Part shown: piece after piece, positions 5,939-39,861 of the stretch
How the letters are laid out: each line of letters opens with the position of its first letter
How positions within the stretch are numbered: the stretch's first letter is position 1
Assembly (NCBI GenBank): GCA_026707815.1
Contig: JAPOWB010000009.1
Coordinates: 70,752-134,751, forward strand
DNA length: 64,000 bases
From: Candidatus Saccharimonadota bacterium
GTDB lineage: Bacteria; Patescibacteriota; Saccharimonadia; Saccharimonadales; VXPC01
Reading direction: 5' to 3'
Program-made: the position numbers and the translations under genes
The notes under the pieces: generated by a model
Seen by the model: only the letters and a program-made list of their open reading frames with translations
The model's database searches: none
What the model was told of the DNA's origin: nothing

Positions 5939-6901
5939 CTAGTCCCTAAAATTCTTGAAATGTAAAATTAAACTAGCTGGCATCAACAAGCTGGCTTCTT
6001 TTTCAGTGGCAATCACTGTCGGGGCATGACTGGGTAGATTAACAGACGCATAATCAACTTTTTTATAGACCTTCTTCAAATCCACCAAATTAGCTTGGTT
6101 ATCTAAGAATTGATCGCCTTGAGTAGCTATATGGTATAAATGTCCATTAATCTGATAATCCAACAAATTAGCTGTTAACATGAATTTAGCAGTATAAGCC
6201 CAAGTTCTAACATCATTGCAATGCCAGAGATGAGTTTCCATGACCAATAACTGACGCTTTTGGGCTTTGGTGAGATTTTTAAACTTAGATTTAGCTAATT
6301 TAGTTGTAGCATAAAAATATCGCAAAACAAATCTATTCAAAATCACATATCTAAAACCCCCAGCAATAAATCTTTGAGATATGAGAGTTGCCCCTAAAAG
6401 ATAGAGTTTTCGACGAATTGGGCTGAAAATAAGTCTTTGACCCGACAGAAAGCCAACTAGAGAGATTAATAAATTTACTCTTGGGCTTTGTTGGGGATAT
6501 TTTTTCAAAAATTGACTAGCAATGAGAAAGCCTAAACTAAAACCCATTAGGGTAAAGTTTTTATCTGGAGTTAATTGTTTCTTTAAAACATCATTCAGAT
6601 AAATCGCATAATTATCCAATGTTGGCTTTTTATTGATTTTATAAAAAGAATCCATGCCACCTAATCCGGGCAAATCAAGGGCTAAAACCTCTCCAAAATG
6701 CCTTAAATATTGTAAAAGACCTTGATTACGCTCTAAAGAAGCATGGTGTCCATAAATAATAACAATCAAATGATTCCCATGCTTTTTATTCAAGGCATTA
6801 GCTCTCCATAGGCGACCCCTCAAGCCATCAATGACTAAAGGTTTAAGGTGTTGACCAAAATCAGTCTGATTAGATCTGCTTTCAACAGATGAAATATTCA
6901 T
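5939..6901 (-). CDS. Alpha/beta-fold hydrolase
   Basis: Nucleophile elbow GFSLG within LMGFSLGFLIA, and an HG-type oxyanion region IIYGHHASL. Specific function unknown. Confidence 0.5.
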   Translation of the reverse strand: MNISSVESRSNQTDFGQHLKPLVIDGLRGRLWRANALNKKHGNHLIVIIYGHHASLERNQGLLQYLRHFGEVLALDLPGLGGMDSFYKINKKPTLDNYAIYLNDVLKKQLTPDKNFTLMGFSLGFLIASQFLKKYPQQSPRVNLLISLVGFLSGQRLIFSPIRRKLYLLGATLISQRFIAGGFRYVILNRFVLRYFYATTKLAKSKFKNLTKAQKRQLLVMETHLWHCNDVRTWAYTAKFMLTANLLDYQINGHLYHIATQGDQFLDNQANLVDLKKVYKKVDYASVNLPSHAPTVIATEKEASLLMPASLILHFKNFRD

Positions 6902-6998: not shown

Positions 6999-7180
6999 GT
7001 GGATAGACATTTCGCATAGAAATACTGTCTAAATTATAACAAAAACCTCAAAATCCATTAAATTAGCTTTTGAAAATATGGATTATATATTTAATCTAGA
7101 CATGTTGGAAAAAATATTTTAGATTAAATATTTTGAGAAAAATAAAAGAAAGATGATTTTTAAGGTATCATATTTAGAAT

Positions 7181-8272: not shown

Positions 8273-8346
8273 TCGGAGATCGTCTAATGGTAGGACGCTG
8301 GGTTTTGGTCCCAGTAATCTAGGTTCGAATCCTAGTCTCCGAGCCA
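8273..8346 (+). tRNA. tRNA-Gln (anticodon TTG)
   Basis: Hand-folded cloverleaf. Acceptor TCGGAGA/TCTCCGA, anticodon stem CTGGG/CCCAG with loop TTTTGGT, T-arm CTAGG-TTCGAAT-CCTAG, encoded CCA. Confidence 0.9.
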
Positions 8347-8612
8347 AGTGAGAAGTTGTTGAAATTTATAGGTAAAAAGAGTGGATTTACATCTGTGAAA
8401 ATTAAATTCTTTGTGATTCCACTAGCTAATTTGTCATAAGTTGGTAATTTATTGTTCCAAATTATTAATCTCTTCTTCCATAATAGTGGTAGGACTATCT
8501 AAAACTTTGATTTTATCTAGATTAAACTTAATTTGATTATTCAAAGTCAAAAGTTGTCATAATTGTATTTCTTAGATACACTTTAAGAAGTTTATGAAGC
8601 TAAAATAAAGAG

Positions 8613-10186
8613 ATGGAAATAGATACTAAAAAAGAGCAAGAGAGACAACAGCTTCATTCAACTATTTGGAAAATAGCTAATAATTTAAGAGGCTCGGTGG
8701 ATGGTTGGGATTTTAAACAGTATGTTTTAGGCATGTTGTTTTATCGTTTTATTTCTGAAAATATTACCAATTATATTAACCGGGGTGAACATAAAACTGG
8801 TCAAAAAGATTTTGATTATGCAAAGCTTGATGATCAAACAGCGGAAGCTGGAAGATTTCAAACAATTAAAGAAAAAGGTTTTTACATTTTACCTAGCGAG
8901 TTGTTTGAAAATATTTGTAGATGGTCAGAAGAAGAAAACAATTTAGAAAACTTAAATGAAAGATTGTTTACAGTCTTTCATAATATTGAAGCTTCAGCTA
9001 AAGGAGCAGTCAGTGAAGATGATATTAAGGGACTCTTTGATGACTTAGATGTTAATAGTAATAGATTGGGGGGGGGATTCTTGAACGTAATCAAAAATTA
9101 CGCAAACTCCTTCAAGCTATTAGCTTACTTAACCTAGGTAAATACGAAGACAATACTATTGATGCTTTTGGTGATGCATATGAGTATTTGATGACCATGT
9201 ATGCCAGTGCAGCTGGCAAGTCAGGTGGTGAATTCTTTACCCCTCAAGAAGTAAGCGAGCTTTTGGCAAAAATTGTTTTAGTTGACAAGACTTCGATTAA
9301 TAAAGTTTATGATCCTGCCTGCGGATCAGGATCATTGCTTTTAAAATTTGCCAAAATACTTGGTAAAGATAATATTAAACAGGGCTTTTATGGTCAGGAA
9401 ATTAATTTAACTATTTATAATCTAGCTCGGATTAATATGTTCTTACATGACATTAATTACGAGAAATTTGATATAGCTCATGGTGATACCTTAATGAGTC
9501 CTAAGCATGAGAACGATGAGCCATTTGATGCCATTGTCTCTAATCCGCCTTATTCGACTAACTGGGAGGGTAAAAATAATCCTTTACTGATTAATGATGA
9601 TAGATTTTCCCCAGCTGGCATATTGGCACCTCCAAGCAAAGCAGATTTAGCTTTTACAATGCATATTTTAAGTTGGTTATCTACTAGTGGTACAGCAGCC
9701 ATTGTTGAATTTCCGGGAGTGCTTTACAGAGGTGGAGCAGAACAAAAAATACGAAAGTATTTAGTAGACAATAATTTTATAGATACTGTTATTCAGCTAC
9801 CATCAGATTTATTTTTTGGCACCAGCATTGCTACTTGCATAGTCGTTTTGAAAAAGAGCAAAAAAGATAACTCCATTCTTTTTATAGATGCTTCTAAGGA
9901 ATTTGTTAGAAATAGTACTAAAAACAAGTTTTCTCAACAGAATATAAGCAAGATTATTAAGACTTATAAAGAAAGAGTAAATATTGACTATTTTGCACAG
10001 CTAATTCCCAATAATCAAATTGCAGAAAATGACTATAATATTGCTATTGGTAACTATATTGAACAACCAGATTTGACAGAGAAGATAGATATTAAAACTC
10101 TAAACACTGAAATTGAAGAAATTGTTGTCAAACAAGAAAAATTAAGGCAACAAATTAATGCAATTGTAAAAGAAATTAAAGGATAG
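8613..10186 (+). pseudogene. hsdM: Type I R-M methyltransferase subunit HsdM, split by a frameshift in a G9 tract (possibly a phase-variable OFF state)
   Basis: ORF 8613..9137 is the HsdM N-terminal domain (LHSTIWKIANNLRGSVDGWDFKQYVLGMLFYRF). ORF 9188..10186 carries GKSGGEFFTPQ, DPACGSGSLL and NPPY. Reading the second frame back to the G-run gives GGILERNQKLRKLLQAI...DAFGDAYEYLM, continuous HsdM sequence. G10 or G7 would restore one 524-aa ORF. Confidence 0.9.
9068..9076 (+). repeat. G9 homopolymer inside hsdM (frameshift site)
   Basis: Nine consecutive G in an AT-rich gene. The reading frame changes exactly here. Confidence 0.95.
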
Positions 10187-10187
10187 T

Positions 10188-10679
10188 ATGCAAGAATTTA
10201 CCAAGATTAAAAATCAAACCAAATTAAAATTACCCAAGGATAGTGCTTATTTATTTCGTTTAGGGGTAGCACTGTATGGATTTAATTGTATTAATAGTTT
10301 CATAATTGAGATTGTTTGCCATCTAGATAAAAAACAAAACAAGATTCAGCTAAATGATAAATCATCAGGAGATGTATTAGATATTTTACGTCAAACTCTA
10401 AAATCAATTAAATCTCAAAAAGTATTTCCGTCTATTTATAAAACAATGCAAAAAATGACCGATTTATTTGAAAAATTGAACACAGAACGTACTGATTTTA
10501 TACACTCATACCCCATCACTAGTCCGAAGGGGAATCAAATTTTACATCGTCGCAAAGATAGCAAGAACAAACATTTTGAGATTACTAATGAATTTCTGGA
10601 TAGCTTTATAAGTCGCTTGCATAAAGTTAGCAATGGCTTATATGAAATAAGGGAGGTGGTGAAATCTGATTTGCAATGA
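10188..10679 (+). CDS. Hypothetical 163-aa protein embedded in the Type I R-M operon, with an Rx4H (HEPN-like) motif
   Basis: ATG lies 1 nt after the hsdM stop and the ORF ends in an ATGA overlap with the hsdS start. The sequence looks largely helical by composition and contains NTERTDFIHSYP (R-x4-H). No family recognised with certainty. Confidence 0.6.
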   Translation: MQEFTKIKNQTKLKLPKDSAYLFRLGVALYGFNCINSFIIEIVCHLDKKQNKIQLNDKSSGDVLDILRQTLKSIKSQKVFPSIYKTMQKMTDLFEKLNTERTDFIHSYPITSPKGNQILHRRKDSKNKHFEITNEFLDSFISRLHKVSNGLYEIREVVKSDLQ

Positions 10680-11821
10680 ATATTGAGAAACTAATTAAAC
10701 AATTAGATCTTGATGGGATTAAATATCAAAAACTTGAAGATATTTGCGATTTAAAACAAGGAGATGGGCTTGTTAAAGCTGATATGTCAGACAATGATTC
10801 TTTTCCAGTAATAGGTGGTGGCAATAAACCTATGGGAAAATATAAATCTAGCAATTTCCCGAGCAAAACTGTCACCGTAGCGAGAGTTGGTTCAGCAGGT
10901 GCAGTGAATTGGAATGATAATCCCTTTTGGGGAACAGATTCATGTTTTGGATTAAATTCTAAACTACAACACGTAAGTACGAAGTATGTCTACTACTATC
11001 TTAAGGATAAGCAAGAAGATTTAGCAAAAAACATCAGACAAGGTCCCATACAAAGGATTAATAAATCATCATTAGCGCAATACAAAATCCCAATTCCGCC
11101 TCTTGAAATTCAACAGGAAATAGTCAATATGCTAGATAAATTTACTAAACTAGAAGCTGAACTAGAAGCTGAACTAGAAGCTAGGAAGAAGCAATATGAA
11201 TATTATCGTAATCAGCTCCTAACATTTGGTGAGAATGCCGAGGGGGGGGGTAAATGGTTCACCATAGGAGAGATTGGTAGAGTTGCCATGTGTAAACGGA
11301 TTTTCAAAAAGGAAACGTCAGCCATTGGTGGTATTCCTTTTTATAAAATTGGTACATTTGGCAAAGAGCCGGATGCATTCATTGACCGTAATTTATACGA
11401 GGAGTATAGGCGAAAATTCTCTTTCCCTAAAAAGGGCGATGTTCTTTTGTCGGCTTCTGGCACGATTGGCCGTACTGTTATTTACGATGGGAACCCAGCA
11501 TACTTTCAAGATTCCAATATAATTTGGATCGATAACGACGAACAGCTAGTTTCAAACAAATACCTATTTTATTACTACCAAATTGTCGAGTGGCGCACGG
11601 AAGGTGGTACAATTGACCGACTCTATGGAAGTCATTTGAAGAGAGTTAAAATCTTTGTTCCATCACAGATCATACAGAAACAAATTGTAAGTACACTTGA
11701 TAGATTCGACAGACTCATAAACGACATCTTTGAAGGTTTACCCGCTGAACTTGATGCTCGTCGCAAGCAGTATGAATATTATCGAGATAAATTATTAACA
11801 TTTGAGAAAGCGAAAGTTTAA
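10676..11821 (+). CDS. hsdS: Type I R-M specificity subunit HsdS (two target-recognition domains, type IC-like)
   Basis: Two TRDs, each followed by a conserved helix: ...LEAELEAELEARKKQYEYYRNQLLTF and ...PAELDARRKQYEYYRDKLLTF. TAATG overlap with hsdR. Confidence 0.9.
   Translation: MNIEKLIKQLDLDGIKYQKLEDICDLKQGDGLVKADMSDNDSFPVIGGGNKPMGKYKSSNFPSKTVTVARVGSAGAVNWNDNPFWGTDSCFGLNSKLQHVSTKYVYYYLKDKQEDLAKNIRQGPIQRINKSSLAQYKIPIPPLEIQQEIVNMLDKFTKLEAELEAELEARKKQYEYYRNQLLTFGENAEGGGKWFTIGEIGRVAMCKRIFKKETSAIGGIPFYKIGTFGKEPDAFIDRNLYEEYRRKFSFPKKGDVLLSASGTIGRTVIYDGNPAYFQDSNIIWIDNDEQLVSNKYLFYYYQIVEWRTEGGTIDRLYGSHLKRVKIFVPSQIIQKQIVSTLDRFDRLINDIFEGLPAELDARRKQYEYYRDKLLTFEKAKV
11147..11182 (+). repeat. 3 x 12-bp tandem repeat (A/GAACTAGAAGCT) encoding (LEAE)n in the HsdS central conserved helix
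   Basis: AAACTAGAAGCT GAACTAGAAGCT GAACTAGAAGCT read directly. It encodes KLEAELEAELEA. Confidence 0.95.
11242..11250 (+). repeat. G9 homopolymer inside hsdS, at the junction between the first and second halves (currently in frame)
   Basis: GAG GGG GGG GGT encodes EGGG. G10 gives an immediate TAA; G8 gives TAG after 5 codons. Confidence 0.95.
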
Positions 11822-14800
11822 TGGAATACAATCTTATTTTAGAAAACAAGAAAAGCACAATTGTTGCTGAGTATACTCCTTCTAAGGTTAGAGCTAGTAG
11901 TTATCAGAGTGAAGCAGATTTAGAACAAGCTTTTATTAATTTGTTAAAAGATCAAGCTTATGAATATTTAAATATTAAGACTGAAGCAGATTTAATTCAT
12001 AATCTAAGAAAACAGTTAGAAAAACTAAATGATTATACTTTTACTGATAGCGAATGGCAGAAATTTTTTGCAAATGATATAGCTAATAAGATTGAAAGAG
12101 TTTTAGATAAAACCAGAAAAATCCAAGAAGATAGTATTAGGCTATTGAAACGAGATAATGGTCATGCCAAAAATATTTCTCTGATAGATAAGCAAAATAT
12201 TCACAATAATACTCTACAAGTTATTAATCAGTATGAAGCTGAAGGAATAAGAGCTAATCGCTATGATGTTACTGTTTTAGTTAATGGATTACCAATGGTT
12301 CACATAGAGCTTAAGCGAAGAGGAATTGCAATTAAGGAGGCTTTTAATCAGATTAAACGTTATCAAAGAGAGAGCTTTTGGGCAAATAATGGCTTATTTG
12401 AGTATGTTCAATTATTTGTTATTTCTAATGGAACTCATACCAAATATTACAGCAACACTACTCGGGAACAACATATTAAGGGTATATATCAAGCTAAAAA
12501 GAATATCAAAAGAACTAGTAATAGCTTTGAATTTACTAACTGGTGGGCAGATGGTAAAAATAAGGGTATTTTTGATTTAGTAGATTTTACAAAAACCTTT
12601 TTTTCTAAACATTCACTTTTAAATGTTTTAACTAAATATTGTGTTTTTACAAGTAATCAGCTTTTATTGGTTATGAGACCCTATCAGATAGTAGCAACTG
12701 AAAGGATTTTAAATAAAATAGAGATCTCAACTAACTATAAAAATCTAAGTAGCATAGAAGCTGGAGGCTATATTTGGCATACAACTGGTAGCGGCAAAAC
12801 ACTGACTAGTTTTAAAACAGCCCAACTTGCCTCTAAAATACCCAAGATAGATAAAGTTTTATTTGTGGTTGATCGTAAAGATTTGGATTACCAAACAATG
12901 AAAGAGTACGATAAATTTCAAAAAGGGGCAGCCAACAGTAATACTTCCACAGCTAAATTGAAGAGGCAATTAGAAAATCTAAGTTCTGATAGAAAAATTA
13001 TTATTACAACTATTCAAAAATTAGATAGATTTATTAAACAAAATCAAAATCATGAAGTTTTTAGTCGACATTTGATTTTAATTTTTGACGAATGTCATCG
13101 CTCTCAATTTGGAGATATGCATAAAGCTATTGTTAAAAATTTTAAGAATTATCATTTATTTGGTTTTACTGGAACTCCTATTTTTGCCAAGAATGCTTCT
13201 TCTTCAGGTAAAGCGAATTTAAAAACAACGGAGCAGGTTTTCGGTAAGCAACTTCACTCTTACACAATTGTTGATGCTATTAATGATGAAAATGTGCTTC
13301 CTTTTAGAGTTGATTATATTAGAACTATCAAAGAAGCTGATTCAATTAATGACTTACAAGTCAGAGACATTGATAGAGAAAGAGCCTTGTCTTCGCCCGA
13401 GAGAGTTAGCCAAGTAGTTCAATATATTATTAATCATTTTGACCAAAAAACTCAAAGAAAAGACATTTATTCTTTTGATAAAACCACTAATATTAGTCAG
13501 ATTACAAAGAGTAAAGCTAAACTAGATGAGGTTAAAAATAGAGCAAAGTTATCTGGTTTTAATTCAATCTTTGCGGTTAGCTCAATTGAAGTTGCTAAGA
13601 AGTACTATCAGGAATTTAAACATCAACAAGATAGTTCAGTAAATCTAATTAAAATAGCTACTATTTTTAGTTATGATGCCAATGAATCAGAAGATGATTT
13701 GGAATTTTTGAAAGATGAAAATCCTGAAAGCATTGATCGACTGGATGTTAGCTCAAGAGATTTCTTGGAAAATGCAATTTCTGATTATAATGCTATGTTT
13801 GGAACAAGTTTTGATACTTCTTCAGATAAATTTCAAAACTATTATAAAGATGTCTCTTTAAGAATGAAAAATAGAGATATAGATTTATTAATCGTAGTTA
13901 ATATGTTTCTAACTGGTTTTGATGCGACAACTCTTAATACTTTATGGGTAGATAAAAATTTACGTATGCATGGATTGCTTCAAGCATATTCAAGAACTAA
14001 TCGTATCCTAAATTCAATTAAAAAATTTGGGAATATTGTTAATTTTCGCAATTTAGAAAAAGCAACTAATGAGGCTTTATCTTTATTTGGAGATAAAAAT
14101 GCTAGTGGGATTGTCTTACTAAAATCTTTTGAAGATTATTATAACGGTTATCAGGCAGATAAAAAAAGAGTTAAGGGTTATTCTGAATTAATAACCGAAT
14201 TAGTTAATCAATTCCCAGTTGGTGAATCAATTGCTAGTGAATCAGAACAAAAAGACTTTGTAAGACTTTATGGATTCATTTTAAGATTGACAAATATCTT
14301 AGCTACTTTTGATGATTTTAAAGGCAAAGAAATATTAACTGACAGACAAATACAAGACTATAGGAGTTTGTATTTAGATTTACATGATAAATTTAGAAAA
14401 ATAGATAAAGTTGATAAAGAAAATATTAATGATGATCTTGTTTTTGAGATTGAACTTATAAAACAAGTCGAAATCAATATCGACTATATTTTACAACTTA
14501 TTAAAATACATCATAGGCTTAATAGGGAAGATAAAGAATTGCCAACTGAAATAGCGAAAATTATTGATTCTAGCCTTAATCTTAGAAACAAAAAAGTTTT
14601 AATTAAGCAATTTATTGCTAAACTTACTCCCACATCGAATGTTGAAGATGATTGGAGCAATTTTATTAATGATAGCCAGATTAAAGAACTTGAAACAATT
14701 ATTAATGAAGAAGATCTTAATCGTCAAAAAACTTACGATTTTATCCAGAATTCTTTCAAAAATGGTGAGATTCAAGAAACTGGGGCGGCAATTGCTGAAA

Positions 14801-14910
14801 TCTTGCCTCCAATGTCTCGATTTGAGCAGATGAGAGAAGAAGCTAAACAGAGAGTTTTGGATAAATTATTATCATTTTTTGATAAGTTTTTCAATATCTC
14901 CAAGATATAG
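11821..14910 (+). CDS. hsdR: Type I restriction enzyme R subunit HsdR (about 1030 aa, EcoR124-like size)
   Basis: N-terminal nuclease region (DVTVLVNGLPMVHIELKRRG), SF2 helicase motifs TTGSGKTLT and FDECHRSQ, and TGTPIF. Confidence 0.9.
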   Translation: MEYNLILENKKSTIVAEYTPSKVRASSYQSEADLEQAFINLLKDQAYEYLNIKTEADLIHNLRKQLEKLNDYTFTDSEWQKFFANDIANKIERVLDKTRKIQEDSIRLLKRDNGHAKNISLIDKQNIHNNTLQVINQYEAEGIRANRYDVTVLVNGLPMVHIELKRRGIAIKEAFNQIKRYQRESFWANNGLFEYVQLFVISNGTHTKYYSNTTREQHIKGIYQAKKNIKRTSNSFEFTNWWADGKNKGIFDLVDFTKTFFSKHSLLNVLTKYCVFTSNQLLLVMRPYQIVATERILNKIEISTNYKNLSSIEAGGYIWHTTGSGKTLTSFKTAQLASKIPKIDKVLFVVDRKDLDYQTMKEYDKFQKGAANSNTSTAKLKRQLENLSSDRKIIITTIQKLDRFIKQNQNHEVFSRHLILIFDECHRSQFGDMHKAIVKNFKNYHLFGFTGTPIFAKNASSSGKANLKTTEQVFGKQLHSYTIVDAINDENVLPFRVDYIRTIKEADSINDLQVRDIDRERALSSPERVSQVVQYIINHFDQKTQRKDIYSFDKTTNISQITKSKAKLDEVKNRAKLSGFNSIFAVSSIEVAKKYYQEFKHQQDSSVNLIKIATIFSYDANESEDDLEFLKDENPESIDRLDVSSRDFLENAISDYNAMFGTSFDTSSDKFQNYYKDVSLRMKNRDIDLLIVVNMFLTGFDATTLNTLWVDKNLRMHGLLQAYSRTNRILNSIKKFGNIVNFRNLEKATNEALSLFGDKNASGIVLLKSFEDYYNGYQADKKRVKGYSELITELVNQFPVGESIASESEQKDFVRLYGFILRLTNILATFDDFKGKEILTDRQIQDYRSLYLDLHDKFRKIDKVDKENINDDLVFEIELIKQVEINIDYILQLIKIHHRLNREDKELPTEIAKIIDSSLNLRNKKVLIKQFIAKLTPTSNVEDDWSNFINDSQIKELETIINEEDLNRQKTYDFIQNSFKNGEIQETGAAIAEILPPMSRFEQMREEAKQRVLDKLLSFFDKFFNISKI

Positions 14911-15149
14911 TAATTCTTAAAGGAATAACAAGACAATTGATACAATATCTATAACTGATTTATGTCAAGAAGGTAAGCGACTATCTATAATCTCCTTCCG
15001 CCAATTACTCGCTTGGGAATTAAAGTCTTTTGTACACCAAAATAATAATTGCAATTATTGGGTATTGGAGTCAATACGTGTCAAGGATATTTAATTAGCA
15101 TCTTGACATTAAAGCCATAATTTATGAGAATGCAAGATGTAATGTTTCA

Positions 15150-33191: not shown

Positions 33192-33851
33192 ATGCATTAT
33201 ATTCAGGAGCTTATGCTTCAGATAAACCTTGAAAGAAACATCTCCGACATGAAGTTGAGTGAACTCAGGGATTTGACAGGAGTGAAACACTTGCAACAAG
33301 TTAAGCATCACCGTAACATGCTGATTACTAAAGGCCTGCTTTCCAAACAGGAACAAGCTAAACAGGCGTTTGGCCAAACCGATATCTTGGGAGGGAAGTC
33401 CCAGCTCATTAACATCCCTATTATGGGGGCTGTAAATGCTGGAGTTGCTTCTGTGTACGCAGAAGGCAAAGTGGAAGACTATCTCAGAATCTCTTCCGAA
33501 AAATTGCCTGTGAGGCATAAAAAAACATTGTATGCACTTAGGGTCGTGGGCAATTCAATGGATAAAGCCTGCATAGGGCCTAATAAGCTCAATATTGAAA
33601 ACGGAGATTATGTTATAGCGGACGGCGATCAATACACTCCCCAATCCGGAGATTATGTCATTTCTCTGATTAACGGTCTGGCCAATGTTAAAAAACTTAT
33701 TATTGACAGCAATGAGGGTCAAGTAGTTCTCGTTTCCGAATCGAGCGGTGATTATCCTCCCATCATTTTGGATATAGACGATCAAATGGACTATATGGCA
33801 CAATCCAAGGTTCTACACGTAATCAAGGTGGGTGCTGTAGCTGGAGTGTAG
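33192..33851 (+). CDS. LexA-like repressor (winged-helix DNA-binding domain plus S24 self-cleaving peptidase domain)
   Basis: The N-terminal LSELRDLTGVKHLQQVKHHRNMLITKGLL resembles the LexA DNA-binding domain. GAVNAGVAS is a possible A-G cleavage site. Catalytic GNSM (Ser) and VKKL (Lys) are at S24 spacing. Confidence 0.75.
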   Translation: MHYIQELMLQINLERNISDMKLSELRDLTGVKHLQQVKHHRNMLITKGLLSKQEQAKQAFGQTDILGGKSQLINIPIMGAVNAGVASVYAEGKVEDYLRISSEKLPVRHKKTLYALRVVGNSMDKACIGPNKLNIENGDYVIADGDQYTPQSGDYVISLINGLANVKKLIIDSNEGQVVLVSESSGDYPPIILDIDDQMDYMAQSKVLHVIKVGAVAGV

Positions 33852-33853
33852 AA

Positions 33854-34843
33854 ATGGGAACACAGACACAAATACTGTTAGGAAATGAAGAGGATGCACA
33901 AGCGTCACAGTTGCCATCTTTTGACGCACAAAGAGATTTCTTCCTGAGCTCACTGAGAAGCAATGGATCAATGCGCTACAAACGTTATACAGCTTCTCCA
34001 CTGCGTTATGCCGGTGGTAAAAGCTTGGCGGTGGGATTCGTTGCGGAATTATTGCCTGATCAGCTAAAACGAATAGTATGTCCTTTCATGGGTGGCGGTT
34101 CCGTTGAGGTTGCTTGCTCCAAGACACTGGGATTAGAGATAATTGCCTACGATATATTTGACATACTATGCACCTATTGGCAAATACAAATTGATGACCC
34201 CAAAGAACTAGCCCGTCGCCTGCGCCAACTGAAGCCTACGCGGGAAACTTTCAAGGAGATCAAGACTGTCCTGAAACAGCATTGGGATTCTGAGATTCGA
34301 TTGGATAGATATGACTTGGCGACTCATTATTACTTCAATGCCAATACTTCTTACGGTCCGCACTTCCTGGGTTCTCCCAGCAGCGTTTATTTGCAAGAGG
34401 ATCGCTATAAGAAGCTTGTGGATAAGGTAGAAAATTTCGATGCGGGTTCTTTGAGAGTGCAATGCTTGGGATTCGAACAGTCAATTCCCAGACATAAAAA
34501 TGATTTCCTATATTGCGACCCTCCTTACTATCTGAACGATGGCAAGATGTTCGTTGGCATGTATCCACACAGGAATTTCCCAGTCCACCATAATAATTTC
34601 AACCACGAATTGCTCAGAGATTTGTTGTTGTCTCACAAGGGCGGTTTCATTTTGTCGTACAACGACTGCGAAACAATTCGCAAATGGTACGCGGGTTGTA
34701 ATATGACTACCCCTAAATGGCAATATACTTTTGGTCAGGGCGATACTAGGATAGGTGAGAATAGGGTTAAGTCTAACGGCGGTTCCCATATAAAGAAATC
34801 CCATGAATTACTGATTTGGAGACATCCCAATGAATGCAGGTAG
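33854..34843 (+). CDS. N6-adenine DNA methyltransferase, Dam-like (D12 class)
   Basis: LRYAGGKS (AdoMet-binding region) and FLYCDPPYY (DPPY catalytic motif) in alpha-class order. The start is 2 nt after the lexA-like stop. Confidence 0.85.
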   Translation: MGTQTQILLGNEEDAQASQLPSFDAQRDFFLSSLRSNGSMRYKRYTASPLRYAGGKSLAVGFVAELLPDQLKRIVCPFMGGGSVEVACSKTLGLEIIAYDIFDILCTYWQIQIDDPKELARRLRQLKPTRETFKEIKTVLKQHWDSEIRLDRYDLATHYYFNANTSYGPHFLGSPSSVYLQEDRYKKLVDKVENFDAGSLRVQCLGFEQSIPRHKNDFLYCDPPYYLNDGKMFVGMYPHRNFPVHHNNFNHELLRDLLLSHKGGFILSYNDCETIRKWYAGCNMTTPKWQYTFGQGDTRIGENRVKSNGGSHIKKSHELLIWRHPNECR

Positions 34844-35615
34844 AAGGGATGGAACTTCAGATCAGGCCCGTCAGTACCGTCAACGAGGCCATGATGCCGC
34901 TTTAGAGTTTGCGAAGTGCCTAGACTTGGATGAAGACTATAAGAACGATAGAAAAGCCAAAAAAGATGTGGTCGACCCATCCGGGGATGCTCATTCGGTC
35001 AAGTCCGGCGAGAAGAAATGGCAAATTTTTCTCTATGGCAGAAATAGATTTGAGCGGGATGATGGTTTTCAAGCTCTAAACGGAGTAGGCTCTCTCCTGA
35101 TTCACTGCATTGACGCGTTTCCTCCCAAGTATAAAGACTATGAAGACAACAAGGATGCGGCCAAGGAAAGGCTGCGCACTCCAATGCGCGAGCTCAAAGA
35201 CAGATTCCAGAGGAAAGCCCTGCTGAGAGCCTTCCTGATGAAATCGATTTTCAACGGAGGCGAAGTGGACTATTTGACCATTAAGCGTGATGATGGCAAT
35301 TTCCATGTATATAAAAATATCGATATAGTTGCCACGCTGGCAGATTCTTTCATCGTGGAGAATTCCGCATTAAAAGGTAAGGGAACCAAACCTGAACAGA
35401 AAGTCCTTTTTAAATATAAGGATCGCAATGTCGGGGAGCTAGAAATGCGCAACGACAGCGCACAACACTACGGCGAAGTCAGATTTAATATGTCGATCCA
35501 GCCTTTCGTGCAACTACTGGATGACGATCCATTACAAATCTTTTCGGACATAAAAAAGCACGTGCCCAAAGTAATAAGCCACGGTAAAGCAACCAAGACA
35601 TTCTACAGATGGTAA
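34830..35615 (+). CDS. Putative type II restriction endonuclease, cognate to the Dam-like methylase
   Basis: 14-nt overlap with the methylase gene. A candidate PD-(D/E)XK core lies in DVVDPSGDAHSVKSGEKKW. No specific family recognised. Confidence 0.5.
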   Translation: MNAGRRDGTSDQARQYRQRGHDAALEFAKCLDLDEDYKNDRKAKKDVVDPSGDAHSVKSGEKKWQIFLYGRNRFERDDGFQALNGVGSLLIHCIDAFPPKYKDYEDNKDAAKERLRTPMRELKDRFQRKALLRAFLMKSIFNGGEVDYLTIKRDDGNFHVYKNIDIVATLADSFIVENSALKGKGTKPEQKVLFKYKDRNVGELEMRNDSAQHYGEVRFNMSIQPFVQLLDDDPLQIFSDIKKHVPKVISHGKATKTFYRW

Positions 35616-36029: not shown

Positions 36030-38000
36030 ATGAGGATAAATAAGCTAAAGATAAAAAATTACAGGTTGCTGAGAGACTTCGAGCTGAATTTAGAAGATAA
36101 TTTATCTCTTTTAGTCGGAAAAAATAATACAGGGAAAACATCCTTGCTTTCCCTGTTTGAGAAATTTCTGATTAACGCCCATTTTGAATTTGAGGACATC
36201 AATGTTGAACTTCAGAAAAGGATAAGCAAGGATTTTGAAAGAGAAGACATAGAAGAAGGTTATCTCGAAGGTATAGAATTAAAAATTTATATAGAGTACG
36301 ACCGGGAAGATAATCTAGCAAATCTATCAAAATTTATGCTCAATTTAGATCCTGAGGAAAACCTTGTCGTATTGCAGTTCAATTACAAGATTAACTCACA
36401 AGATATATCAAACATAAAGCAAGAGATGGAAGTTACATCTAACAAAGATGTAATCAAGTATTTAAAGAAATACCATAGGGACCACTTTAAGCGTTATGTG
36501 CGAGCACTTGAAGCCAGTAACGAGGATAATTATGTGGCCGTAGAAGAGCGAGAGTGCGTGCGCAAACTACTTCGAATCCAAACCATTAGCGCAAATAGGG
36601 GTATTGCCAGTTCAGGCAGCAGCAGGATGGCAAAGAATCAAAGACTTTCTGGATTATCCTCCAATTACTACAAAAAAATAGAAGATATTTCTAAAAATCC
36701 CGACATTCAAGAATTGAGGAATTCTCTGTCTCAAGCAGATGAAAAATTCACCACAGCCTACAAGGGTATTTTTAGTGACCTTGTAGAGAAGATCCGGAAA
36801 TTTGGCGGTATACAGGAAGGGGAGTCTGCGATACAGATAATATCCTCACTAAGTGGGGTAGATATATTGGAAAACAATACCTCTGTTATATATGATCACG
36901 ATGGCTACAAGCTTCCAGAGAATTATAATGGGTTAGGTTATATGAATTTAATCGCTATGATATTTGAAATAGCTATTAAACTTAAAAATTTTGAAGAATC
37001 TCCTCCTTCCGATATATGCCTGCTTTTCATTGAGGAGCCTGAAGTGCATACACATCCCCAGATGCAGCGTGTATTTATCAAAAACATTAAGGAATTGTTG
37101 AATGTCGAGAATTTTTTCTTGCAAACAATAATGAGCACCCACTCTTCCCATATTGCGTCAGAGAGCAATTTTGATGATATCAAATATCTGCTGAGAGAGT
37201 CTAAATCTGTCGTGAGAGCAAAGGATCTCAAGCAATTGAAAGAAGCATACGAGAATGATCAATACGAGTTTTTGAAAAAATACCTCACATTAACTAGAGC
37301 TGAACTATTTTTCGCGGATAAAGTAATTCTCATAGAGGGTGATACCGAACGAATTATACTGCCAACAATGATAGAGAAGATAGATTTGGAATCTGGTGGT
37401 ATTGATAAAGCACACCTGTCTTCACAAAATATATCAATCGTAGAGGTGGGAGCGCATGCACATGTGTTTGAAAAACTTGTAGCCTTTCTAAACATTAAAG
37501 GTCTAGTAATAACTGATTTGGACGCAGTTAACGCGGAGGGGGCATGTCCCGTGCGTGAAGGTGTGAGAACGTCTAACGCATCTTTAAAGCATTTTTTTAG
37601 CCAAGATAAATTAGAGTATTTCCTAGATCTCTCATTGGAAAAACGAATATGCAAACCGAAAATGAGCAGCAGTGAACCAGAAGACTCAAGTAGCAAACTT
37701 TTGATTGCTTATCAATCTAAAGAGAGTGGGGGTGATTACTGCCCGCGTAGCTTTGAAGATGCTTTCATTGATATTAATGTAGATTTTATAAAAGCCAACT
37801 TAAAAAGATTTAATAGTTTGAAGAATAAAGATTATTTTAATGAAGCAAATAGGGAAGCGCACGAATTGGCTGAGTGCATAAAAAAGAAGACCGATTTCGC
37901 AATAGATATAATTTATTGCAGCAATGCGGAATATGGCAACTGGAATATTCCCCACTATATAAGAGAAGGGCTCCTGTGGCTACGTGGCGCAGATGAATGA
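36030..38000 (+). CDS. gajA: OLD-family ATP-dependent endonuclease (ABC-type ATPase plus Toprim), GajA-like
   Basis: N-terminal INKLKIKNYRLLRDFELNL...LLVGKNNTGKTSLL (Walker A), LLFIEEPEVHTHPQ (Walker B / D-loop region), and Toprim VILIEGDTERIILP with VITDLDA. Confidence 0.8.
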   Translation: MRINKLKIKNYRLLRDFELNLEDNLSLLVGKNNTGKTSLLSLFEKFLINAHFEFEDINVELQKRISKDFEREDIEEGYLEGIELKIYIEYDREDNLANLSKFMLNLDPEENLVVLQFNYKINSQDISNIKQEMEVTSNKDVIKYLKKYHRDHFKRYVRALEASNEDNYVAVEERECVRKLLRIQTISANRGIASSGSSRMAKNQRLSGLSSNYYKKIEDISKNPDIQELRNSLSQADEKFTTAYKGIFSDLVEKIRKFGGIQEGESAIQIISSLSGVDILENNTSVIYDHDGYKLPENYNGLGYMNLIAMIFEIAIKLKNFEESPPSDICLLFIEEPEVHTHPQMQRVFIKNIKELLNVENFFLQTIMSTHSSHIASESNFDDIKYLLRESKSVVRAKDLKQLKEAYENDQYEFLKKYLTLTRAELFFADKVILIEGDTERIILPTMIEKIDLESGGIDKAHLSSQNISIVEVGAHAHVFEKLVAFLNIKGLVITDLDAVNAEGACPVREGVRTSNASLKHFFSQDKLEYFLDLSLEKRICKPKMSSSEPEDSSSKLLIAYQSKESGGDYCPRSFEDAFIDINVDFIKANLKRFNSLKNKDYFNEANREAHELAECIKKKTDFAIDIIYCSNAEYGNWNIPHYIREGLLWLRGADE

Positions 38001-39861
38001 AATATCTCAAATCAAAGAACTTATAGCCCAGAACAAGAGTTTTGTATTAAGCGGCGGACCGGGGAGCGGCAAGACCCATACACTGATTGAGACATTAAAG
38101 CATATATACACAGTGAATCCTATCGCTTCGGTGGCATGTATTACTTTCACTAATGCTGCGGTAGATGAGATAAGAGGCAGATACAAGCCACCTTCTGGCA
38201 GCCTGCTTACTTTGACAATTCATGATTTCCTATGGTCTTCAATATCAAATTTCCAGACTGATCTCAAGAGAGCCTTAGTATCTCTTCTGGCTGAAAATAG
38301 TAGATATTTTCAATATGACGGCAGCATGGTTATAGATGAAGAGTATCTTAAAACTGAAAATATCACTTATAGAGAGCAACATAATTTTGAAAGAGGAGTG
38401 GTTTCACATGACCAAGTTATACCACTGGCTAGAAAAATGTTTGAGAATCACAGCCTGTTGGCAGATATAGTGAATGATAGATATAGATACATATTAGTGG
38501 ACGAATATCAGGACACATTTGATGACGCATTGGTTATCCTGCTGCAATACCTAAAAACATCCAAGAAAAGAGGGGTTATTGGATTGTTCGGCGATGAAAT
38601 GCAGGCAATATATGAGAATAGTGCAAGCGCCAATAGGGAGCAATTAATCAAGGAGTCATGTGAATTGATCTCTAAGGAGGATAATAGAAGGAATCCAGCA
38701 CAAGTTATAGCATTAATCAATAAATTTCGGTCGGACGGGTTGGAGCAAATAGCATCAATTGAGGAATCTTCCCCGAATTACAGAAAAGAAGGTTCTATAA
38801 AGTTCATTTATTCAACGGTTAGCTACAGTATAAAGGATATTAAGAAGCTACAATTTTTCGATACTTGGGACTTTGGTAACTCTACTGCAACTAAGGAGCT
38901 TTATCTTACAAAGAAGCTCATAGCCGAGGAATCAGGCTTTGCGGGGCTAATGGACATATACACGAACGATCAAATAATAAAATATAAGTCACTGGTGTCG
39001 AAGAGAATTAAAGAAGATAATGTTGAAATCGATGAGAATGAAAGATTTGGTAAGATTATAGAGAGAATGGGGCTGCCCCAAGATAAAAAGACAAAAGATT
39101 TTATCTCAAAAAATGAAGATCTGTATGAGTTCGCGAAAAATCTGCCCTACAAATCTATCTCTGGAACATATTTAAAAGCGGATCAGCTTATAGGCCGTAA
39201 AAAGAAACAGCAGATACAATTGTCACAGACAGGAGATGACAGGGATGACCTAATAAATCATTTACTGGATATACAGGAGTGTATTTACTTATATTCAGGT
39301 AAGCAATACAACAAATTTATCCAGAAGACTGACTATAAGGTTGGATGCATTGCTGACAAGGAAACACTACGAGCATCCATAGAAAGCATGCGCCATATGG
39401 AAGAAGGGGTAATTAGCGCAGTCATCGAAGCCGCTAATCGTATGGGTATATGGCAAAAGGGTTCAGCAATCAAAAGCTTCCTGCAAACCAATCCTTATAC
39501 CTATTACAGAGTGGGACCTGTTAAATACAAAGAGTTGATTGCACTATATAATTACATAGAAGATTACACACCCTACTCTACTCAACACAATATAAAGGGC
39601 ACTGAGTACGACAATGTGTTTATTGTCCTAGATAACGGTAATTGGAATAAATATAATTTTCAATCTCTTTTTGAAAATTCTTCGAGTAATCAAGAAGCAC
39701 TTCAACGTACGACTAGGCTATTTTATGTTTGTTGTAGCAGGGCTAAAAACGAACTGGTTGTTTATTTTAACAGGCCGACTCAAGGTGTTATAAATGGTGC
39801 AAAAGAATTATTTGGTGAAGAAAACATTTTATGTATAGACAGCTTTGTTGCTGCATCCTGA
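37993..39861 (+). CDS. gajB: UvrD/PcrA-like SF1 helicase, GajB-like
   Basis: SGGPGSGKTHTL (motif I), LVDEYQDT (motif II), HNIKGTEYDNVFIVL and CCSRAKNELVVYF (motifs V/VI). ATG 37993 overlaps the gajA stop (ATGAATGA); the listed GTG at 37984 is an alternative. Confidence 0.8.
   Translation: MNEISQIKELIAQNKSFVLSGGPGSGKTHTLIETLKHIYTVNPIASVACITFTNAAVDEIRGRYKPPSGSLLTLTIHDFLWSSISNFQTDLKRALVSLLAENSRYFQYDGSMVIDEEYLKTENITYREQHNFERGVVSHDQVIPLARKMFENHSLLADIVNDRYRYILVDEYQDTFDDALVILLQYLKTSKKRGVIGLFGDEMQAIYENSASANREQLIKESCELISKEDNRRNPAQVIALINKFRSDGLEQIASIEESSPNYRKEGSIKFIYSTVSYSIKDIKKLQFFDTWDFGNSTATKELYLTKKLIAEESGFAGLMDIYTNDQIIKYKSLVSKRIKEDNVEIDENERFGKIIERMGLPQDKKTKDFISKNEDLYEFAKNLPYKSISGTYLKADQLIGRKKKQQIQLSQTGDDRDDLINHLLDIQECIYLYSGKQYNKFIQKTDYKVGCIADKETLRASIESMRHMEEGVISAVIEAANRMGIWQKGSAIKSFLQTNPYTYYRVGPVKYKELIALYNYIEDYTPYSTQHNIKGTEYDNVFIVLDNGNWNKYNFQSLFENSSSNQEALQRTTRLFYVCCSRAKNELVVYFNRPTQGVINGAKELFGEENILCIDSFVAAS

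What the first reader, a model, noticed from the sequence alone, without database searches (positions are those of the whole stretch)
8613..10186. hsdM is switched off by a G9 tract: candidate phase-variable Type I methylase in a CPR-like genome
The N-terminal (8613..9137) and catalytic (9188..10186) parts of HsdM are in different frames, and the switch maps exactly to GGGGGGGGG at 9068-9076. Reading the downstream frame back to the tract gives uninterrupted HsdM sequence (GGILERNQKLRKLLQAI...DAFGDAYEYLM...GKSGGEFFTPQ). Apart from tract length the gene is therefore intact, and G10 or G7 would restore it. Runs of G or C of 7 or more occur only twice in the whole 64-kb AT-rich window, and both are in this operon. 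Homopolymer-driven ON/OFF switching of R-M methylases (phasevarions) is established in Neisseria, Haemophilus, Helicobacter and Mycoplasma. To my knowledge it has not been characterised in ultra-small episymbiotic lineages.
Basis: partly seen in the sequence, partly recalled or inferred. Interest (0 to 1): 0.7.

Follow-up and report, generated by a model that had tools for sequence, protein, structure and literature searches.

The report
Poly-G switch in Saccharibacteria restriction-modification methylase
A run of nine G's breaks the methylase gene of a DNA-defence system in an ultra-small Saccharibacteria genome; comparisons with related strains suggest a slippery on/off switch caught "off" rather than a dead gene, which is a known trick seen here in a little-studied lineage.

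Summary
G9 at 9068-9076 splits an otherwise intact Type IC (EcoR124-like) hsdM. G10 restores a 524-aa HsdM that matches TIGR00497 end to end and aligns gap-free with EcoR124II HsdM. The window is a Candidatus Saccharibacteria MAG.

Evidence for a contingency tract rather than decay or error:
- The only two G/C runs of 7 or more in 64 kb lie in hsdM and hsdS.
- At least three other assemblies, from at least two data sets, show G9 in hsdM.
- A roughly 97%-identical strain has hsdM broken only at the same tract, in a different register. hsdM dN/dS between the two strains is 0.10, and 0.09 downstream of the frameshift.
- The hsdS G9 sits at the NgoAV-type TRD1/TRD2 junction. It is G8 in another run of the same strain, which gives a 196-aa half-HsdS.
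- Two 72%-identical relatives keep an in-frame G9 at another hsdM site.

Not shown: an ON (G10) allele, read-level heterogeneity, or any methylome or regulon effect.

Repeat-bearing hsdM (2%) and hsdS (7.8%) genes are already catalogued across bacteria. This is therefore a new member of a known kind, in a new lineage. Interest is moderate.

The parts
8273..8346 (+). tRNA-Gln(TTG), about 140 bp upstream of the left edge of the strain-variable hsd island
   Evidence: ARAGORN and Rfam. Strain 3 (L090) aligns up to window 8482 and resumes at 14965.
8483..14964 (+). 6.5-kb Type IC restriction-modification island (hsdM, orf163, hsdS, hsdR). It is present in this strain and in strain 2 (GCA_026708245.1) and absent from strain 3 (GCA_026706615.1).
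8613..9137 (+). hsdM 5' part as it reads with G9: a 174-aa HsdM_N fragment that ends at a TAG 61 nt after the tract
   Evidence: It is called as a separate 174-aa gene in the ENA assemblies.
9068..9076 (+). G9 homopolymer, the frameshift site. ON would be G10 (TTG GGG GGG GGG ATT, reading L-G-G-G-I).
9077..10186 (+). hsdM 3' part (frame 2) with the catalytic domain: motif X DAFGDAYEYLM, motif I DPACGSGS and motif IV NPPY. The first canonical start codons in this frame (TTG 9188, ATG 9191) lie inside or after motif X, so an independently translated C-fragment would lack motif X.
10188..10679 (+). 163-aa ORF between hsdM and hsdS with no family match. It is absent from strain 2.
10676..11821 (+). 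hsdS, 381 aa, with two target-recognition domains. It is in frame with G9.
   Evidence: Pfam Methylase_S, two stretches.
11148..11182 (+). Perfect 12-bp x 2.9 tandem repeat encoding (LEAE)n in the central conserved region of HsdS. Strain 2 has one more unit.
11242..11250 (+). Second G9 tract, at the junction between the central conserved region and TRD2 of hsdS. G8 or G10 would give a 196- or 192-aa half-HsdS. The G8 allele is seen in Logan ERR5004219.
11821..14910 (+). hsdR, 1029 aa, intact, with an EcoR124_C domain. dN/dS is 0.17 against strain 2.

Best explanation
The G run in hsdM is a hypermutable contingency tract. Slipped-strand mispairing during replication changes its length. G10 gives full-length HsdM, so the whole Type IC system is ON: the M2S1 methylase and the R2M2S1 restriction enzyme both need HsdM. 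G9, the state captured here, gives a 174-aa N-terminal stub and no catalytic domain, so both methylation and restriction are OFF, with no risk of self-restriction. The same operon has two further variable elements. A G9 tract between the two target-recognition domains of hsdS toggles between full-length HsdS and a half-HsdS, which in NgoAV changes specificity. A 12-bp (LEAE)n repeat, in EcoR124I/II, sets the spacer length of the target. Shown here: the lesion, its exact repair, the intactness and selective constraint of the gene, the mutability of the tracts between strains and runs, and the recurrence of such tracts in relatives. Inferred: reversibility in this strain, mixed ON/OFF populations, and any benefit (defence against DNA uptake, autoimmunity avoidance, or epigenetic regulation).
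For: 1. The gene is intact apart from the tract. The G10 product is full-length TIGR00497 at 745 bits, and it aligns gap-free with EcoR124II HsdM at 573 bits.
2. The tract is non-random. It was built from rare GGG codons (11.9% of Gly). The closest relative with the same Gly-Gly-Gly encodes it as GGA GGG GGC, and 80 other homologues have no run there.
3. A consensus miscall is unlikely. G9 is found in two ENA assemblies (a scaffold and a MEGAHIT k141 contig; two further contigs were not displayed) and in a Logan contig of run ERR5005006, all otherwise 100% identical to the window. NCBI gives hsdM no protein accession, although its neighbours have consecutive ones.
4. Strain 2 (GCA_026708245.1, 95% nt identity across hsdM) carries G9 followed by TT instead of ATT. 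That is another OFF register (ON would be G8 or G11), and hsdM is otherwise intact. This indel is the only one in 4.6 kb of aligned hsdM plus hsdR coding sequence.
5. hsdM dN/dS between the strains is 0.098 (64 substitutions, P = 5e-18 against neutrality). Downstream of the frameshift it is 0.088. For comparison, hsdR is 0.17 and cobW 0.12.
6. The hsdS tract is G8 in Logan ERR5004219, over 1683 bp that are otherwise identical. The called 196-aa protein equals the predicted G8 product.
7. About 21 of 48 family loci carry a repeat at this hsdS junction, and both in-frame and split states occur.
8. Two relatives on 0.69-Mb contigs, only 72% identical to each other, both keep an in-frame G9 at another hsdM site, YRGGAE.
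9. The literature gives switching rates of about 2-13 x 10^-3 for nine-base mononucleotide tracts. It also records repeat-driven hsdM ON/OFF and hsdS full/truncated switching as established kinds (PMC7383803).
Against: No G10 (ON) allele of this hsdM exists in about 5.8 billion protein clusters; the best full-length hit is 75% identical. Every assembly of this strain that covers the tract has G9, and both strains are OFF. The hsdM tract has therefore never been seen to vary within a strain. One re-assembly of strain 2 (L088) has an extra 5-bp deletion in hsdM, which could mean decay has begun in part of that population. The higher dS in the 3' part of hsdM (0.20 against 0.05 in hsdR) suggests recombination, so part of the purifying-selection signal may have accrued in other lineages. 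No reads, methylome or expression data were available.
Confidence: 0.6

Rival explanations
1. Recent, effectively one-way loss. The system is being discarded by a reduced genome, and the slippery tract was simply the first place to break. There is no selected switching.
For: Both strains are OFF and no ON allele is known. The island is absent from strain 3. One assembly of strain 2 has a second lesion.
Against: hsdS and hsdR are intact and constrained, and hsdM dN/dS is 0.09-0.10 including the out-of-frame part. The two strains are OFF in different registers at the same tract and have no other lesion in the NCBI assemblies. The tract is built from rare codons. Similar tracts are conserved in frame in relatives.
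Confidence: 0.2
2. Homopolymer sequencing or assembly error. The true sequence is G10 and hsdM is constitutively ON.
For: Homopolymers are the most error-prone context. The assemblies may share one platform or study. The G8/G9 discrepancy in hsdS could be technical.
Against: At least three other assemblies, made by different assemblers from at least two data sets, agree on G9. Strain 2 needs -1 or +2 rather than +1, so a uniform one-base undercall cannot rescue both strains. The hsdS G9 in the same contigs is in frame, which argues against a systematic one-base loss at G runs.
Confidence: 0.12
3. The G9 allele is itself expressed. Transcriptional slippage by RNA polymerase, or ribosomal frameshifting on the G run, yields some full-length HsdM, giving a constitutive low-level system.
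For: There is no direct evidence here. From general knowledge, slippage on long homopolymers rescues frameshifted genes in some endosymbionts.
Against: No stimulatory element was sought or seen. Documented slippage mostly involves A/T runs. The different OFF register in strain 2 fits DNA-level slippage more simply.
Confidence: 0.05

Closest known systems
Repeat-containing (potentially phase-variable) Type I hsdM genes, e.g. H. influenzae hsdM with a pentanucleotide repeat and M. haemolytica ACAGC(n) (Atack et al., FASEB J 2019/2020, PMC7383803)
   Same: A frameshifting repeat sits inside hsdM, with predicted ON/OFF switching of the whole Type I system. The tract meets that survey's criterion of a mononucleotide run of 9 or more. 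hsdM repeats are rare: 2% in REBASE, and 2 of 84 homologues here.
   Different: Here the repeat is a mononucleotide G run about 29% into the gene, in the linker between HsdM_N and the catalytic domain. Most surveyed hsdM repeats are near the 5' end. The gene is captured OFF, a state that survey says it misses. The host is a Saccharibacteria MAG, not a cultured pathogen.
NgoAV (Neisseria gonorrhoeae, Type IC) poly-G tract in hsdS
   Same: It belongs to the same Type IC family. The poly-G lies between the two target-recognition domains, and a one-base change truncates HsdS to a TRD1-only half subunit. Both the full-length (381 aa) and the truncated (196 aa) alleles were observed for this strain.
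   Different: The specificity change was not measured here. This operon combines the hsdS tract with a tract in hsdM.
EcoR124I / EcoR124II (Type IC prototype)
   Same: HsdM scores 573 bits against 7BST chain D, and HsdR has the EcoR124_C domain. HsdS has a 4-aa repeat in its central region whose copy number differs between strains. From my own knowledge, this resembles the TAEL x2 against x3 difference that changes the spacer from N6 to N7.
   Different: EcoR124 has no homopolymer tracts. The repeat unit here is LEAE.
Type III mod phasevarions (Haemophilus, Neisseria, Helicobacter)
   Same: Repeat-driven ON/OFF switching of a DNA methyltransferase.
   Different: They are a different R-M type. 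A regulon effect defines a phasevarion, and none was tested here.
hsdS 'epigenetic invertons' predicted in Candidatus Saccharibacteria (PMC7672463)
   Same: Phase-variable Type I R-M predicted in the same phylum.
   Different: The mechanism there is invertase-mediated shuffling of hsdS, not homopolymer slippage, and it does not involve hsdM.

Membership tests
Type I R-M methyltransferase subunit HsdM (TIGR00497) | HsdM_N plus N6_Mtase architecture and a full-length match above the curated cut-off | tested here: met
   The G10-repaired product scores 745 bits against a cut-off of 243, covering profile positions 1-515. Pfam PF12161 and PF02384 also match.
Type I R-M methyltransferase subunit HsdM (TIGR00497) | Catalytic motifs: motif X, motif I (AdoMet binding) and motif IV (NPPY) | tested here: met
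   DAFGDAYEYLM, DPACGSGS and NPPY are present and align with EcoR124II HsdM.
Type I R-M methyltransferase subunit HsdM (TIGR00497) | A single uninterrupted ORF in the sequence as given | tested here: not met
   G9 splits it into fragments of 174 aa and 331-332 aa. As sequenced, it is an OFF allele or pseudogene.
Type IC (EcoR124) family | An hsdM-hsdS-hsdR operon, HsdR with the EcoR124 C-terminal domain, and close similarity to EcoR124 HsdM | tested here: met
   PF12008 matches at 1.4e-61. HsdM scores 573 bits against 7BST_D. The operon order is shown.
Repeat-mediated phase-variable gene (contingency locus) | A repeat of switch-competent length inside the ORF whose length change shifts the frame (mononucleotide run of 9 or more, criterion of PMC7383803) | tested here: met
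   G9 in hsdM and G9 in hsdS.
Repeat-mediated phase-variable gene (contingency locus) | Tract length varies among otherwise near-identical genomes or reads | tested here: inconclusive
   hsdS: met, with G8 against G9 in sequences otherwise identical over 1683 bp. hsdM: G9 in every assembly of this strain that covers it. The only variation is a one-base length difference at the tract edge against the 97%-identical strain 2. No reads were available.
Repeat-mediated phase-variable gene (contingency locus) | Both ON and OFF alleles observed | tested here: not met
   For hsdM, no G10 allele exists in 5.8 billion clusters or in the JGI contigs. For hsdS, both states were observed.
Repeat-mediated phase-variable gene (contingency locus) | The gene is otherwise maintained by selection, not decaying | tested here: met
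   dN/dS is 0.098 overall and 0.088 downstream of the frameshift. No other lesion exists in the window or in L087.
Phasevarion (phase-variable regulon) | Methylome switching that changes expression of multiple genes | not testable with these tools
   It needs methylome and transcriptome data from ON and OFF populations.
NgoAV-type hsdS switch | The repeat lies between TRD1 and TRD2, and a frameshift gives a TRD1 plus central-region half subunit | tested here: met
   The tract follows ...EARKKQYEYYRNQLLTFGENAE. The G8 product is 196 aa. The same site carries repeats in about 21 of 48 family loci.
NgoAV-type hsdS switch | Full-length and truncated HsdS give different methylation specificities | not testable with these tools
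   It requires a methylome or biochemistry.

The most novel reading that the evidence does not exclude
Saccharibacteria, and perhaps other ultra-small CPR episymbionts, concentrate their few hypermutable poly-G tracts on restriction-modification methylase and specificity genes: hsdM, hsdS and a DpnII-type M gene across three strains here. Populations would then be mosaics of defence-ON and defence-OFF cells with alternative methylomes. This could gate the uptake of foreign DNA or act as an epigenetic regulator of the episymbiotic lifestyle, making it a CPR phasevarion.
Probability: 0.25. Interest if true: 0.65.

Novelty: new member of a known kind. Interest (0 to 1): 0.42.

Why it matters
If confirmed with reads, this would be a documented case of homopolymer-driven ON/OFF switching of a Type I system in Patescibacteria/CPR. 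I found no paper describing one. These organisms have tiny genomes and few regulators, and their defence and DNA-uptake biology is only now becoming tractable. The case also illustrates that 'frameshifted pseudogene' calls for R-M genes in MAGs can hide switchable genes, so surveys of intact genes miss the OFF states. The three-layer variability in one operon (hsdM ON/OFF, hsdS full or half, and an (LEAE)n spacer repeat) gives a concrete, testable prediction of several methylome states. The mechanism itself is textbook contingency-locus biology and would not surprise a specialist in phase variation.

Tried and rejected
- The GTDB species-representative scan with the repaired HsdM returned 80 loci at 73% identity or less. 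There was no conspecific, so no direct tract comparison came from that collection.
- The search of 5.8 billion protein clusters for an ON allele found nothing above 75% identity.
- JGI metagenome scans with the exact 5' flank plus at least seven G's found 0 hits for the hsdM tract and 0 for the hsdS tract.
- A paper search for the sample, run and assembly accessions found 0 hits, so the habitat of the samples stays undetermined.
- Exact look-up of the closest HsdM relatives gave no organism names. The taxonomy of the 0.67-0.69-Mb contigs (L084, L097, L098) is therefore unknown. Their size only suggests CPR.
- Pfam, NCBIfam and PADLOC on the 163-aa ORF gave no family.
- I considered a non-standard genetic code, as in Gracilibacteria. 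I rejected it because all neighbouring genes are long ORFs under table 11 and the identical proteins are annotated at NCBI as Saccharibacteria.
- I considered G7 as the ON length. It is possible, but it deletes one residue relative to all homologues.
- I considered that an independently translated C-terminal fragment might be active. I rejected it because the first canonical start codons lie within or after motif X.
- The idea that every R-M methylase in these genomes carries a tract is wrong: the Type II MTase at 33854-34843 has none.

Full report
**1. What is in the sequence**

The window has GGGGGGGGG at 9068-9076. Upstream, frame 0 runs from ATG 8613 and ends at TAG 9135-9137, giving 174 aa. 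From the tract onward, frame 2 is open to 10186.

Inserting one G (G10) or removing two (G7) fuses the two parts into a protein of 524 or 523 aa. G8 does not. The G10 product has these properties:
- It hits NCBIfam TIGR00497 (hsdM, equivalog) over the entire profile at 745 bits.
- It hits Pfam HsdM_N and N6_Mtase.
- It aligns without a gap across the tract to EcoR124II HsdM (PDB 7BST chain D, 573 bits).

Eighty homologues read KLG-x-TV-x-KRN at this position, the same length as RLGGGILERN. G10 is therefore the ancestral ON length.

The first canonical start codons in the downstream frame are TTG 9188 and ATG 9191. They lie inside or after motif X (DAFGDAYEYLM), so the C-terminal fragment cannot be made as an active enzyme on its own (the link to activity is an inference).

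The operon runs hsdM, a 163-aa ORF of unknown family, hsdS (381 aa), then hsdR (1029 aa, with the EcoR124_C domain). This is a Type IC system.

**2. Is the tract more than chance?**

Only two G/C runs of 7 or more exist in 64 kb. Both are G9, one in hsdM and one in hsdS at 11242-11250. The next longest G/C run is 6, and the longest A/T run is 8 in a 65% A+T sequence.

Markov simulations expect 0.05-0.22 such runs, and two or more appear in at most 1.7% of simulations. That both fall in the 2.7 kb of hsdM plus hsdS adds a further factor of roughly 0.002.

GGG makes up 11.9% of Gly codons. The nearest relative with Gly-Gly-Gly at this position encodes it as GGA GGG GGC (L083).

**3. Whose genome is it?**

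Exact look-ups show the window's TopA, CysS, HsdR, HsdS and PBP2 are NCBI proteins MCY4089xxx. They are annotated 'Candidatus Saccharibacteria bacterium' with locus tag OXF49_. hsdM has no protein accession although its neighbours have consecutive numbers, so NCBI treats it as a pseudogene or leaves it uncalled. The 'CPR-like' inference is correct.

**4. Is G9 an assembly artefact?**

The same 15 kb and 9.7 kb, base for base and including both G9 tracts, occur in ENA assemblies ERZ23500023 (a scaffold) and ERZ27276919 (a MEGAHIT-style k141 contig). A Logan contig from run ERR5005006 is 100% identical over window 8996-13048 and also has G9/G9.

Several assemblers, working from at least two data sets, therefore agree. 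I could not establish how many biological samples this represents, and no reads were available.

**5. Related strains**

Two further MAGs share proteins at 90% identity or more.

Strain 2 (GCA_026708245.1, L087; ENA re-assembly L088/L085) has the orthologous island.
- Its hsdM is 95% identical in nucleotides across the gene.
- It differs from the window in length at one place only, the 3' edge of the tract: TTG-G9-TTCTT against TTG-G9-ATTCTT.
- That reads L-G-G-G-S-stop (156 aa, P0134).
- Repair needs G8 or G11. G11 gives a 524-aa protein with LGGGVLERN, the motif of the closest relative P0003.

Both strains are thus OFF in different registers at the same tract, and neither NCBI-lineage sequence has any other lesion.

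The Nei-Gojobori comparison of the repaired genes is shown below.

| Gene or region | dN/dS | Detail |
|---|---|---|
| hsdM, whole gene | 0.098 | 64 substitutions, 19 nonsynonymous, P = 5e-18 against neutral proportions |
| hsdM, downstream of the frameshift | 0.088 | 55 substitutions |
| hsdR | 0.17 | |
| cobW | 0.12 | |

A long-dead gene would not look like this.

Two caveats apply:
- dS is higher in the 3' part of hsdM (0.20) than in hsdR (0.05). Recombination with other functional alleles may have contributed to the signal.
- The ENA re-assembly of strain 2 carries an extra 5-bp deletion in hsdM.

Strain 3 (GCA_026706615.1, L090) lacks the island entirely. The island is window 8483-14964, starting about 140 bp downstream of tRNA-Gln.

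**6. The hsdS tract**

The second G9 lies directly after the central conserved region (...LEAELEAELEARKKQYEYYRNQLLTFGENAE-GGG-KWF), between the two target-recognition domains. G9 is in frame. G8 or G10 would give half-HsdS proteins of 196 or 192 aa.

The 90% cluster of the window's HsdS contains a 196-aa protein (P0132) identical to the predicted G8 product. Its contig, from Logan run ERR5004219, matches the window over 1683 bp except for G8 in place of G9. Tract-length variation in this strain is therefore observed directly for hsdS, although a technical origin cannot be excluded.

Strain 2 has an hsdS with different recognition domains (36% identity overall), one more LEAE unit, and the same G9 at the same junction.

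Across the homologous loci where the junction motif could be found, about 21 of 48 carry a repeat at this site. The repeats are G or C runs of 6-13, (GA)n, (ACAG)n and a (CAGG)-like repeat. Some are in frame and some split the gene. They include other Saccharibacteria MAGs: L031 with (GA)n and L068 with G7.

This is the NgoAV arrangement. It is also the general rule reported by Atack et al., that hsdS repeats always lie between the two recognition domains (PMC7383803).

**7. Other hsdM tracts**

Among 84 homologues, only two have a coding G/C run of 7 or more in hsdM. They are L084 (P0001) and L098 (P0028), both on contigs of 0.69 Mb. Both carry an in-frame G9 at TAC AGG GGG GGG GCA (YRGGAE), although the proteins are only 72% identical. 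The window encodes the same residues as AGA GGT GGA. Both loci also have C13 or C8 at the hsdS junction.

Homopolymers in hsdM have therefore arisen at two or more different sites in this clade. At one site the tract has persisted through deep divergence, which argues for selection on the tract.

**8. Mechanism proposed**

The step from DNA slippage to frame change to loss of the catalytic domain is shown by the sequence.

It is established Type I biochemistry, not tested here, that loss of HsdM abolishes both modification and restriction, because HsdM is part of both the M2S1 and the R2M2S1 complexes. An hsdM-OFF state is therefore a safe OFF.

Reversion to G10 at useful frequency is inferred from published rates for nine-base mononucleotide tracts, about 2-13 x 10^-3 (cited in PMC7383803). 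It also fits the different registers seen in the two strains.

With the hsdS tract and the (LEAE)n repeat, the operon could in principle occupy several states: OFF, ON with a bipartite asymmetric target, ON with a half-HsdS dimer target, and spacer-length variants.

Whether the benefit is defence trade-offs, DNA uptake or epigenetic regulation is open.

**9. Rivals**

- One-way loss at a slippery site (0.2). It fits 'both strains OFF', the absence of the island from strain 3 and the extra deletion in L088. It fits poorly with the dN/dS values, the intact hsdS and hsdR, and the conserved in-frame tracts in relatives.
- Consensus error (0.12). It is weakened by concordant assemblies, by strain 2 needing -1 or +2 rather than +1, and by the in-frame G9 of hsdS in the same contigs.
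- Expression through transcriptional or translational slippage (0.05). It has no support here.

**10. Comparison with what is known, and novelty**

Atack et al. surveyed REBASE and found switch-competent repeats in 7.8% of hsdS, 2% of hsdM and 4.3% of hsdR genes, in pathogens and in environmental bacteria. They note that their survey misses hsdM genes that are phase-varied OFF (PMC7383803).

Inversion-type hsdS switching has been predicted for two Saccharibacteria loci (PMC7672463). Full-text searches found no paper describing repeat-driven phase variation in Saccharibacteria or Patescibacteria themselves. The one hit concerns the host bacterium.

The finding is therefore a well-supported new member of a known kind, in a lineage where it has not been described. 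It is not a new mechanism.

**11. Verdict**

- Observation: confirmed.
- Interpretation: supported as a candidate. Reversibility and any regulon role remain unproven.
- Confidence that the frameshift is real: about 0.85.
- Confidence that it is a functioning ON/OFF contingency switch: about 0.6.
- Interest: 0.42.

Noticed in passing
window 11242-11250: A second G9 tract in hsdS at the TRD1/TRD2 junction, in frame here. A Logan contig of run ERR5004219 (L086), identical over 1683 bp, has G8 and encodes the predicted 196-aa half-HsdS.
   Followed up: yes
window 11148-11182: A perfect 12-bp x 2.9 tandem repeat encoding (LEAE)n in the central conserved region of HsdS. Strain 2 (L087) has one more unit. 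This is analogous to the TAEL repeat that sets spacer length in EcoR124I/II.
   Followed up: partly
window 10188-10679: A 163-aa ORF wedged between hsdM and hsdS, overlapping the hsdS start by 4 nt. It has no Pfam, NCBIfam or PADLOC match, is the sole member of its 90% protein cluster, and is absent from the orthologous operon of strain 2.
   Followed up: partly
window 8483-14964 (tRNA-Gln at 8273-8346): The whole hsd operon is a strain-variable island just downstream of tRNA-Gln. Strain 3 (GCA_026706615.1, L090) has about 56 bp in its place.
   Followed up: yes
L087 1823-1831; L088 1828-1836; L090 15019-15027 (inserted relative to window ~7060-7069): Strains 2 and 3 carry a DpnII-type Type II R-M pair that the window lacks. 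Its N6_N4 methylase has a G9 tract 12 codons after the ATG. With G9 the ATG frame stops at once (…DLGGG*). The DPPY frame would need G8 or G11 and has no canonical start after the tract, yet the DpnII endonuclease gene downstream is intact. This may be another switchable R-M gene.
   Followed up: partly
L084 9121-9129 and 10199-10211; L098 8121-8129 and 9167-9174: The closest HsdM relatives, on contigs of 0.69 Mb, keep an in-frame G9 at a different hsdM site (YRGGAE) although they are only 72% identical to each other. They also have C13 or C8 at the hsdS junction.
   Followed up: partly
L007, L018, L031, L057, L053 (hsdS central junction): Other members of this Type IC family carry (ACAG)n, (GA)n or (CAGG)-like repeats at the same hsdS junction. 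One is an oral Saccharibacteria MAG (L031). About 21 of 48 loci have some repeat there.
   Followed up: partly
L088 ~6161-6168 against L087: Two assemblies of strain 2 differ by a 5-bp deletion plus 2 substitutions inside hsdM, and by 5 substitutions near the end of the DpnII-type methylase gene. This is either population micro-heterogeneity or assembly noise.
   Followed up: partly
window 36030-39861: A complete Gabija defence pair: GajA (656 aa, PADLOC 747 bits) and GajB (625 aa, 622 bits).
   Followed up: partly
window 33854-34843 (neighbours 33192-33851 and 34830-35615): A Type II DNA methyltransferase (PADLOC MTase_II, 355 bits) flanked by two ORFs with no family, possibly its endonuclease. 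It contains no long homopolymer, so not every methylase gene here carries a tract.
   Followed up: no
window 53928-56324: A 798-aa protein with weak TraD/VirD4-type coupling-protein matches, next to topA. This suggests a type IV secretion or DNA-transfer component.
   Followed up: no
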